Shown here: one piece after another, positions 63,679 through 63,830 of the stretch | How positions within the stretch are numbered: the stretch's first letter is position 1 | Layout of the letters: the number at the start of each line of letters is the position of its first letter | IMG/VR virus record: IMGVR_UViG_3300026382_000008 | From: an uncultured virus (IMG/VR IMGVR_UViG_3300026382_000008) | Taxonomy: Duplodnaviria; Heunggongvirae; Uroviricota; Caudoviricetes | Strand: one strand, 5' to 3' | Length of the DNA: 63,830 nucleotides | Program-made: the position numbers and the translations under genes | Notes under the pieces: generated by a model | What the model was told of the DNA's origin: nothing | The model's input: the letters and a program-made list of their open reading frames with translations, nothing else | The model's database searches: none

Positions 63679-63811
63679 CTATAAATCAGTTTCAATGAAA
63701 TCTTTTTCTGTTAAGTTTATGACATTTTCAATTCTTGTACTGCATTTATACCATTTATCATTCTTCTTTATAAAAAGTGTTACATTACAATCTGCAACTG
63801 AATCTCCATCG
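63679..63811 (-). CDS. rpoC: RNAP beta' micro-exon: catalytic DGD plus split-intein IntN (40 aa, Ser1)
   Basis: Reads DGD|SVADCNVTLFIKKNDKWYKCSTRIENVINLTEKDFIETDL*, a block-A-like peptide after DGD that complements the IntC lacking block A. There is no start codon, and an in-frame TGA lies at 63826-63828. Confidence 0.7.
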
Positions 63812-63830
63812 CCTTCATGTTCGCCTCAGT

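What the first reader, a model, noticed from the sequence alone, without database searches (positions are those of the whole stretch)
63802..63830. Catalytic DGD sits on a micro-exon between a probable intron and the intein
Seen: upstream of GAT GGA GAT the frame reads TGA-GEHEG rather than NADF, so the motif is broken at this point. The minus strand reads ...CATGAAGG|C GAT GGA GAT. A 5' exon ending TT, an intron ending G (63812) and the exon C would restore TTC (Phe), obeying the group I rules of U before the 5' site and a terminal G. An alternative junction one base earlier gives TGC (Cys). Inference: this exon contributes only about 3 residues, including two of the three catalytic aspartates, so RNA splicing and protein splicing would be stacked within 10 nt. 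Only 19 nt of the putative intron are visible.
Basis: partly seen in the sequence, partly recalled or inferred. Interest (0 to 1): 0.85.

Follow-up and report, generated by a model that had tools for sequence, protein, structure and literature searches.

The report
Interrupted phage RNA polymerase catalytic motif
At the window's edge a giant-phage RNA polymerase gene resumes, after an inserted stretch that is probably a self-splicing intron, with the last two catalytic aspartates followed at once by the short half of a split intein, so the enzyme's active site seems to need both RNA splicing and protein splicing.

Summary
The minus strand reads TGA-GEHEG-DGD, then 40 codons and a stop. The DGD belongs to the beta' catalytic DFDGD motif of a jumbo-phage-type split RNA polymerase.

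A related metagenome contig (L007) has the uninterrupted gene ending ...GGDFDGD|SVADCNVTL...*. The window is 112/131 identical to it from C63811 downstream. It is only 6/19 identical in register in the last 19 nt.

The DGD frame has a stop five codons upstream and no ATG/GTG/TTG. Of the 6 closest beta'-N proteins, 2 end right after GGDF with a shared read-through tail. A more distant relative has an Rfam-detected group I intron with an endonuclease-like ORF 2 nt away in the same motif.

The "intein" is the 40-aa N part of an atypically split intein. Its partner sits at 46676-47131 and ends FVQD|T-IAVYMPLT.

The intron itself lies beyond the contig end and was not seen, so group I identity is inferred. 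"Micro-exon" is wrong at the RNA level: the exon is at least 130 nt. It is right for the mature protein.

The parts
63812..63830 (-). Last 19 nt of an intervening sequence (putative group I intron 3' end), ending in G63812. In the gene's frame it holds a TGA at 63828-63826.
   Evidence: It matches the uninterrupted gene of L007 at 6/19 in register, against 112/131 just downstream. No better match is found anywhere in the window or in 7 loci (best 12-14/19). No Rfam hit.
63811..63811 (-). First base of the downstream exon: third base of the Phe codon (TT|C) of DFDGD.
   Evidence: L007 reads GAT TTC GAT GGA GAC at 9992-10006. Window homology starts at this C.
63802..63810 (-). GAT GGA GAT = D-G-D, the second and third catalytic aspartates of the beta' DFDGD motif and the last residues of the N-extein.
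   Evidence: All 10 aligned beta'-N proteins have D at the first position of the motif. 8 of 10 carry the full D-[FY]-D-G-D. The other 2 are cut after GGDF.
63682..63801 (-). N part of a split intein (IntN, 40 codons, starts with Ser: SVADCNVTLF...), followed by the stop TAG at 63679-63681.
   Evidence: Alignment A5 holds the window's tail and 6 homologous tails, all after DGD. Pfam Intein_splicing matches the partner only from profile position 27 on, so the first ~26 positions are supplied here. Complex prediction: score 0.89, best control 0.00.
46676..47131 (-). C part of the same split intein (IntC, residues 1-152 of P0001), with block B T65-x-x-H68 and the end F-V-Q151-D152.
   Evidence: Pfam PF14890, E 2.3e-9, 37.7 bits (cut-off 35.8), residues 30-150 = profile 27-153/155. 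The residues named are invariant in 8 of 8 aligned sequences.
44771..46675 (-). C-extein: beta'-C, starting T153-IAVYMPLT (the equivalent of QMAVxxPLT that follows DFDGD in intein-free relatives), with Rpb1 domains 3, 4 and 5.
   Evidence: The intein-free relatives P0011 and P0013 read DFDGDQMAVYAPLT and DFDGDTMAIYHPIS.

Best explanation
The window ends inside the beta'-N gene of the split multisubunit RNA polymerase of an uncultivated jumbo-type phage. The holding runs are labelled hydrothermal vent metagenome. The gene is interrupted inside the Phe codon of the catalytic GGDFDGD motif (TT|C) by an intervening sequence, of which only the last 19 nt (63830-63812, minus strand) are in the window.

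The insert is most likely a mobile, self-splicing group I intron. After RNA splicing the mRNA would read ...GGDF-DGD-IntN-stop.

The 40-residue IntN then pairs with the 152-residue IntC that heads the beta'-C protein (gene about 16.5 kb away, same strand). Protein trans-splicing would use Ser1, a C-terminal Asp152 and Thr+1. It would join ...DFDGD to TIAVYMPLT..., giving a continuous beta' active-site loop.

Shown here:
- the exact break of homology;
- the lack of any way to translate DGD-IntN on its own;
- the split-intein anatomy.

Inferred:
- that the insert is an intron of group I;
- that it is in cis;
- that both splicing reactions occur.
For: 1. Junction. The window is 112/131 identical to the uninterrupted L007 gene from C63811 on and 6/19 identical upstream, P 1.4e-7. 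The relative's sequence GAT TT|C GAT GGA gives U at -1. The window gives G at the insert's end and restores the frame.

2. No independent expression. There is an in-frame TGA five codons upstream and no ATG/GTG/TTG in the frame. TGA is a normal stop here (8 of 49 long ORFs).

3. Polymorphic insertion at the same site. Of the 6 closest beta'-N proteins (P0005-P0010, 50-100% identical to P0005), 4 run through DF/YDGD into an IntN tail. The other 2 (P0008, P0009; 70% identical to each other) stop right after GGDF with the same read-through tail, [K/D]LGVPKAS.

4. Precedent in a relative. In G002 (beta'-C 32% identical) the same motif is cut at NAD|FDGD by 1.04 kb. This stretch carries a 260-aa ORF with CxxC pairs that I read by eye as endonuclease-like (no family scan was run on it). 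It also carries Rfam Intron_gpI matches at both ends (E 1.9e-8 and 1.3e-3, both below the gathering score), with U before the 5' site and G before the 3' site.

5. First 12 residues of the exon. DGDSVADCNVTL is identical to L007 despite 2 synonymous changes, which speaks for a coding exon in use.

6. Intein. The complex score is 0.89 against a best control of 0.00. The mark was reached by 116 of 157 solved complexes and by 2 of 215 mismatched pairs. The runs agree in at least 91% of contacts and the partner's pLDDT is at least 88. Split inteins have solved structures, so this pass may rest on likeness to them.
Against: - No intron structure was seen. Only 19 nt are available, Rfam gives no hit in 63400-63830, and there is no gathering-level group I hit in the window, L001 or L007.
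- The upstream exon of this phage was never found, so the U at -1 is taken from a relative.
- The DNA behind P0008 and P0009 could not be fetched, so their insert is not shown to be the same as the window's or to be an intron.
- The only assembly covering 63784-63830 is one contig that may be the window's own source. The other three runs stop or diverge at 63725-63772, so the last 19 nt have no independent confirmation.
- The intein ends in Gln-Asp, not His-Asn. Splicing activity is untested.
Confidence: 0.65

Rival explanations
1. The insert is not a self-splicing intron. It is another insertion (a free-standing endonuclease gene, a transposon or a recombination scar) that has fractured or killed beta'-N. 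DGD-IntN is then an untranslated remnant, or is expressed by an unknown route.
For: The homology break alone does not say what the insert is. No intron structure was seen. Frame 1 of the last 48 nt is open to the window's end and stops 30 nt into the exon, which could be the end of an ORF carried by the insert. A variant strain in run X3 diverges inside the IntN coding region at 63725, so this spot is rearrangement-prone.
Against: The exon's first 12 residues are conserved through synonymous changes. The partner IntC is intact, with all key residues invariant in 8 of 8 sequences, which is pointless without IntN. The same site is hit in two diverged relatives with an identical read-through tail, typical of site-specific homing. 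A relative has a detectable group I intron in the same motif. The junction obeys the U(-1) and terminal-G rules.
Confidence: 0.17
2. The last ~19 nt are a contig-end artefact (a chimeric or error-laden tip). The true sequence is a continuous ...GGDFDGD-IntN gene as in L007.
For: The stretch lies at the very end of the contig. Only one assembly, possibly the source, covers it. Other runs' contigs end at 63765 and 63772.
Against: The depth of the X1 contig is 38.8 with no variant listed. The break falls exactly on a base where the U(-1)/G/frame rules hold. Two relatives' proteins independently stop at this same codon. A de Bruijn chimera would need a shared word far longer than the 10 nt CGATGGAGAT (inference).
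Confidence: 0.1
3. The interruption is a group II intron, a split (trans-splicing) intron, or is bypassed by recoding or frameshifting.
For: Nothing upstream is visible, so cis or trans cannot be told.
Against: From my own knowledge, group II introns start with GUGYG and end in AY. The insert ends ...GAAGG, and the relatives' read-through tail (TTN then AAR or GAY, CTN GGN ...) cannot begin GUGYG. TGA is a used stop. Neither of the other two frames resembles ...SAFGGDF.
Confidence: 0.05

Closest known systems
Group I intron with an HNH endonuclease (gp210) in the virion RNA polymerase beta-subunit gene of Pseudomonas jumbo phage PhiPA3 (PMC11620839; passages read)
   Same: A mobile intron in a jumbo-phage multisubunit RNA polymerase gene, placed right next to conserved aspartates of a highly conserved motif.
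   Different: That intron is in a beta homologue, not beta'. It has been seen, and its endonuclease has been shown to nick DNA. No intein lies next to it. Here the intron is only inferred from a 19-nt tail and from relatives.
Group I intron at NAD|FDGD in the beta'-N gene of the IMG/VR contig behind L002 (G002), found here
   Same: Same gene and same motif, 2 nt from the window's site. U before the 5' site and G before the 3' site. Rfam Intron_gpI matches.
   Different: A different insertion point (after GAT, not after TT). Its 3' end is not convincingly alike. That phage has no intein after DGD (MFDGDQMGIYLPLT).
Naturally atypically split inteins of phage terminase genes: AceL-TerL (IntN 25 aa), GOS-TerL (IntN 37 aa, Ser1), Cat-TerL (30 aa) (PMC11766414; passages and table rows read)
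   Same: A short IntN (40 aa here) and a long IntC (152 aa) that holds block B. Found in phage or metagenome genes. Ser1 as in GOS-TerL.
   Different: The host protein is RNA polymerase beta', at the catalytic loop. The C-terminal residue is Asp after Gln, not Asn. The +1 residue is Thr. No sequence relation was tested.
[quoted passage not shown] 3 legend read)
   Same: The intein ends in Asp152, invariant in 8 of 8 sequences.
   Different: Those are contiguous inteins in other genes. Activity of this one is untested.
crAss-like Zeta-group phages, whose RNA polymerase ORFs are broken within the DxDxD motif (PMC7886860; passages read)
   Same: A phage RNA polymerase catalytic motif disrupted in genomes rich in introns and inteins.
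   Different: That is a different polymerase type (two barrels in a single chain). The authors left the mechanism open. Here both flanking elements can be named.

Membership tests
Group I intron | Conserved catalytic core (P3-P9 with a G-binding site), detectable by a covariance model | tested here: inconclusive
   Only 19 nt lie in the window. Rfam E-value search of 63400-63830 gave no intron hit and the gathering search of the whole window gave none. The core, if present, lies beyond 63830.
Group I intron | U as the last base of the 5' exon (U-G pair in P1) | tested here: inconclusive
   The window's own 5' exon was not seen. The uninterrupted relative reads GAT TT|C, which would give U at -1.
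Group I intron | Terminal G at the 3' end, and exon ligation that restores the reading frame | tested here: met
   G63812 precedes C63811. TT + C GAT GGA GAT restores F-D-G-D as in L007.
Group I intron | Self-splicing / ligated exons in RNA | not testable with these tools
   No run on record as RNA was listed. Needs RT-PCR or an in vitro splicing assay.
Intein (HINT domain, class 1) | HINT/intein splicing domain | tested here: met
   PF14890 on P0001 residues 30-150: E 2.3e-9, 37.7 bits against a cut-off of 35.8.
Intein (HINT domain, class 1) | N-terminal Cys/Ser nucleophile directly after the N-extein | tested here: met
   Ser follows DGD in the window and in 5 of the 6 other aligned tails. 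One has Thr.
Intein (HINT domain, class 1) | Block B T-x-x-H | tested here: met
   T65 and H68 are invariant in 8 of 8 sequences.
Intein (HINT domain, class 1) | C-terminal His-Asn | tested here: not met
   It ends Gln151-Asp152, invariant in 8 of 8. Asp-ending inteins are a described variant (PMC4031507).
Intein (HINT domain, class 1) | +1 Cys/Ser/Thr, and exteins that together rebuild the host protein's conserved sequence | tested here: met
   T153 is invariant. DFDGD + TIAVYMPLT matches DFDGDQMAVYAPLT of the intein-free P0011.
Split intein (trans-splicing), atypical short-IntN type | Two separately encoded halves that associate | tested here: met
   IntN ends with a stop at 63679-63681. IntC starts with ATG at 47131. 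The L007-contig relative has both genes more than 10 kb apart. Association is only predicted: score 0.89, best control 0.00; the mark was reached by 116 of 157 solved complexes and 2 of 215 mismatched pairs; contacts agree in at least 91%; partner pLDDT at least 88. The pass may rest on likeness to solved split inteins.
Split intein (trans-splicing), atypical short-IntN type | Demonstrated protein trans-splicing | not testable with these tools
   Needs co-expression and detection of the ligated product.
Multisubunit RNA polymerase beta' (double-psi beta-barrel, DFDGD) | Rpb1 domains and the D-x-D-G-D metal-binding motif | tested here: met
   Rpb1 domains 3, 4 and 5 on P0001. PF00623 is precomputed on P0005-P0010. 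The window itself shows only DGD.

The most novel reading that the evidence does not exclude
The three catalytic aspartates of a viral RNA polymerase are assembled only after two nested splicing events 9 nt apart. A mobile group I intron splits D-F from D-G-D. A naturally atypically split intein (40-aa IntN, Ser1 ... Gln-Asp | Thr+1) then joins DGD in trans to the rest of beta'. Both elements home to the same ~15 nt of the most conserved DNA of the gene. The intron is polymorphic among close relatives. It could then act, as in PhiPA3, as a weapon against co-infecting intron-less relatives, while the split intein makes polymerase assembly conditional on two gene products.
Probability: 0.45. Interest if true: 0.7.

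Novelty: new variant of a known kind. Interest (0 to 1): 0.6.

Why it matters
If confirmed, an RNA polymerase active-site loop would depend on RNA splicing and protein trans-splicing at sites 9 nt apart. That would be a compact natural example of two selfish elements stacked on the most conserved DNA of an essential gene.

It would add a natural split intein with a short IntN and an unusual Ser1 / Gln-Asp / Thr+1 chemistry, possibly of vent origin. Such inteins are sought as protein-ligation tools.

It would extend the PhiPA3 finding, that introns in jumbo-phage polymerase genes take part in phage-phage competition, to beta' and to an uncultivated clade.

It also warns annotators. In this clade beta'-N is called as truncated (P0008, P0009) or missed (this window) although it is probably functional.

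My two full-text searches for this combination found no report of it. The search 'split intein' + 'RNA polymerase' + 'jumbo phage' found 1 paper, which concerns a DNA polymerase intein. The search for intein + group I intron + same gene + bacteriophage found 21 papers, of which 15 were listed; I opened 1 of these and saw the other 14 as listing only. The library lacks most subscription journals.

Tried and rejected
- **Whole genome.** None is held.

- **Circular contig.** Joining the window's start to its end would close ORF 1-1347 after 16 more codons. But its homologues (P0002; L001 7873-9744, 623 aa) run about 170 or more residues further, and there is no terminal repeat. Rejected.

- **Extension past 63830.**
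  - An exact 41-nt and a 19-nt pattern in viral contigs gave 0 hits.
  - Laying 4 runs gave no extension. The X1 contig ends at 63830, X2 at 63765 and X4 at 63772. X3 diverges behind 63725.
  - The X3 loose end matches nothing in the window or in the 7 loci.
  - No RNA holder was listed.

- **Relatives' DNA.**
  - The 224-aa neighbour and the 48-aa peptide found no relative in viral contigs.
  - P0009 and the alignment A3 found none in viral contigs, and A3 found none in genome contigs.
  - G001 (the closest IMG/VR relative, 54% complete) holds no beta'-N: PF00623, the peptide and P0005 all gave 0 matches. Its contig starts 11.5 kb upstream of beta'-C.

- **Small ORFs like the 48-aa peptide.** None in the 5.8-billion-protein set. 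The peptide has no match in annotated phages.

- **Similarity of the 19 nt to L007 coding sequence.** MAFFT placed them 6 nt out of register, at 10/19 by my count of its conserved-column line. That is no better than the best chance placements elsewhere, 12-14/19. Rejected as homology.

- **TGA recoding.** Rejected.

Full report
**What the window is.** The 63.8-kb window is AT-rich and tightly packed with genes. These include tail sheath, baseplate, RecA-like and PD-(D/E)XK nuclease genes, and pieces of a multisubunit RNA polymerase:
- beta-N at 49655-52198 (+);
- beta-C at 52217-54262 (+);
- beta'-C at 44771-47131 (-).

The nearest annotated phages are jumbo phages at 31% protein identity or less among the 25 best places listed (the Staphylococcus S6 group, PBS1/AR9, phiKZ-like). 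No whole genome is held. The runs that hold the DNA are labelled hydrothermal vent metagenome.

**The observation.** On the minus strand the last bases read TGA GGC GAA CAT GAA GGC GAT GGA GAT, then 40 codons and TAG. No ATG, GTG or TTG lies in this frame between the two stops, and no ORF is called there. TGA ends 8 of 49 long ORFs in the window, so it is a normal stop.

**What follows DGD.** P0001 (beta'-C) starts with 152 residues that match Pfam Intein_splicing from profile position 27 to 153 of 155 (E 2.3e-9, above the cut-off). This stretch ends ...NGIFVQD, followed by T-IAVYMPLT.

In 8 of 8 homologues T65, H68, Q151, D152 and T153 are invariant. Intein-free relatives read DFDGDQMAVYAPLT (P0011). 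The intein therefore sits exactly between DGD and the (Q/T)-x-A-V residues.

The missing first ~26 profile positions are the 40 residues after DGD at the window's end (SVADCNVTLF...). Six other beta'-N proteins carry like tails directly after DGD, starting Ser in 5 and Thr in 1.

A complex prediction of DGD-IntN with IntC(1-170) scored 0.89, with a best control of 0.00. The mark was reached by 116 of 157 solved complexes and by 2 of 215 mismatched pairs. The runs agree in at least 91% of contacts and the partner's pLDDT is at least 88. IntN residues 1-15 touch IntC 22-27, 142-146 and 150-153. Split inteins have solved structures, so this shows likeness, not binding.

This is thus an atypically split intein: a short IntN and a long IntC that holds block B, like AceL-TerL and GOS-TerL (PMC11766414, passages). 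Its C-terminal Asp is a described variant (PMC4031507, Fig. 3 legend).

**What precedes DGD.** A degenerate pattern for DGDSVADCNV found one metagenome contig (L007). It is syntenic with the window's end: the same 76-aa ORF follows, then homologues of the 224-aa, 78-aa and PTPS genes.

Its beta'-N gene (8927-10132, 401 aa) is uninterrupted and ends ...SAFGGDFDGD|SVADCNVTLYMKK...*. From the C before GAT GGA GA the window and L007 are 112/131 identical. The 19 nt upstream match at 6/19 in register (P 1.4e-7 at 85.5% identity). They match nothing else better than chance.

Homology therefore stops between 63812 and 63811, inside the Phe codon: L007 has GAT TT|C GAT, the window has ...GAAGG|C GAT.

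**Is the insert an intron?** It cannot be seen. Four lines of evidence make a mobile group I intron the best reading.
- DGD-IntN cannot be translated on its own. Yet its first 12 residues are kept through two synonymous changes, and its partner IntC is intact.
- Among the 6 closest beta'-N proteins, 4 are continuous. The other 2 (P0008, 367 aa; P0009, 365 aa) end just after GGDF with the tails KLGVPKAS and DLGVPKAS, although the two proteins are only 70% identical. That is the picture of read-through into one and the same insert at one and the same site, present in some relatives and absent in others.
- In the more distant G002, beta'-N ends ...GYNAD plus read-through. A 260-aa ORF with CxxC pairs follows, which I read by eye as endonuclease-like; no family scan was run on it. 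The gene resumes at FDGDQMGIYLPLT. Rfam Intron_gpI matches both ends of the 1.04-kb insert (E 1.3e-3 and 1.9e-8; both below the gathering score, as expected for a core split by an ORF). GAU lies before the 5' site and AUG before the 3' site.
- Group I introns with endonucleases are known next to conserved aspartates in a jumbo-phage polymerase gene (PhiPA3; PMC11620839, passages).

**Against.**
- No structure is visible, and there is no Rfam hit in the window.
- The upstream exon of this phage was not found.
- The DNA behind P0008 and P0009 could not be fetched.
- The last 47 nt are covered only by one contig that may be the window's own source.

**The contig end.** That contig ends at the same base as the window, at depth 38.8. 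Contigs of two other runs end at 63765 and 63772. A 99%-identical strain in a fourth run diverges behind 63725. This is compatible with a repeated or polymorphic element just beyond the end, but it is weak evidence.

- The motif in this clade is GGDFDGD.
- The downstream RNA exon is 130 nt plus the stop, not a micro-exon. What is tiny is its contribution to the mature protein: D-G-D and one base of Phe.
- The intein is split, and its partner lies about 16.5 kb away.

**Verdict.** The intein is real, and more unusual than stated. The intron is a well-supported inference (about 0.65), not a demonstration. Of the remaining ~0.35, a non-intron insertion that has fractured the gene is the strongest rival (about 0.17), followed by a contig-end artefact (about 0.1).

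Noticed in passing
window 51887-52198 (+) and 52217-52336 (+): The beta subunit is also cut by a split intein, this one of the canonical kind. Beta-N ends ...DTPE|CLDVDT... with a 104-aa IntN holding a D-D-H-R block-B-like stretch. The next gene, 18 nt on, starts with a 40-aa IntC ending ITHN|SGNAG. L001 has the same arrangement. Pfam gives only a faint Hom_end_hint hit.
   Followed up: partly
window 63440-63670 (-): A 76-aa ORF just downstream of IntN is about 70-74% identical at the DNA level to hypothetical genes of Staphylococcus and Clostridioides difficile phages (51 records). It is the only part of the last 3.8 kb with such matches. It is kept next to beta'-N in L007. No Pfam family.
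   Followed up: no
window 1-1347 (-) and 47424-49430 (+): Two paralogous genes without a Pfam family share stretches such as ...IW.CL.G..Y.YITKD.N. One is cut by the window's start, the other lies head to head with beta'-C. In L001 the homologue of the first lies directly upstream of beta'-C on the same strand, so the gene order differs between close relatives.
   Followed up: partly
window 5916-5941 and 60024-60049: A perfect 26-nt palindrome (GGGGATGACTCTTAAGAGTCATCCCC) occurs twice, 54 kb apart, at gene ends. A 75%-alike copy lies at 54840-54867. These are probably bidirectional terminators.
   Followed up: no
window 42277-43635 (-): A 453-aa ORF with a DUF559 / REase_MTES_1575 endonuclease-like domain lies 1.1 kb downstream of beta'-C. 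It may be a free-standing homing-type nuclease.
   Followed up: no
window 63725 (run X3): A strain 99% identical over 63290-63725 goes on with unrelated sequence for about 1.7 kb from the middle of the IntN coding region. In the IntN frame the new sequence brings a stop 9 codons upstream of the junction. What replaces beta'-N/IntN there is unknown.
   Followed up: partly
L001 3219-3746 (-): In the relative G001 a 175-aa ORF sits between beta-C and beta-N, that is, between the two halves of the beta split intein. In the window these genes are 18 nt apart. This recalls the 'fractured gene' arrangement with an inserted gene. That name comes only from a reference-list title seen in PMC6892783.
   Followed up: no
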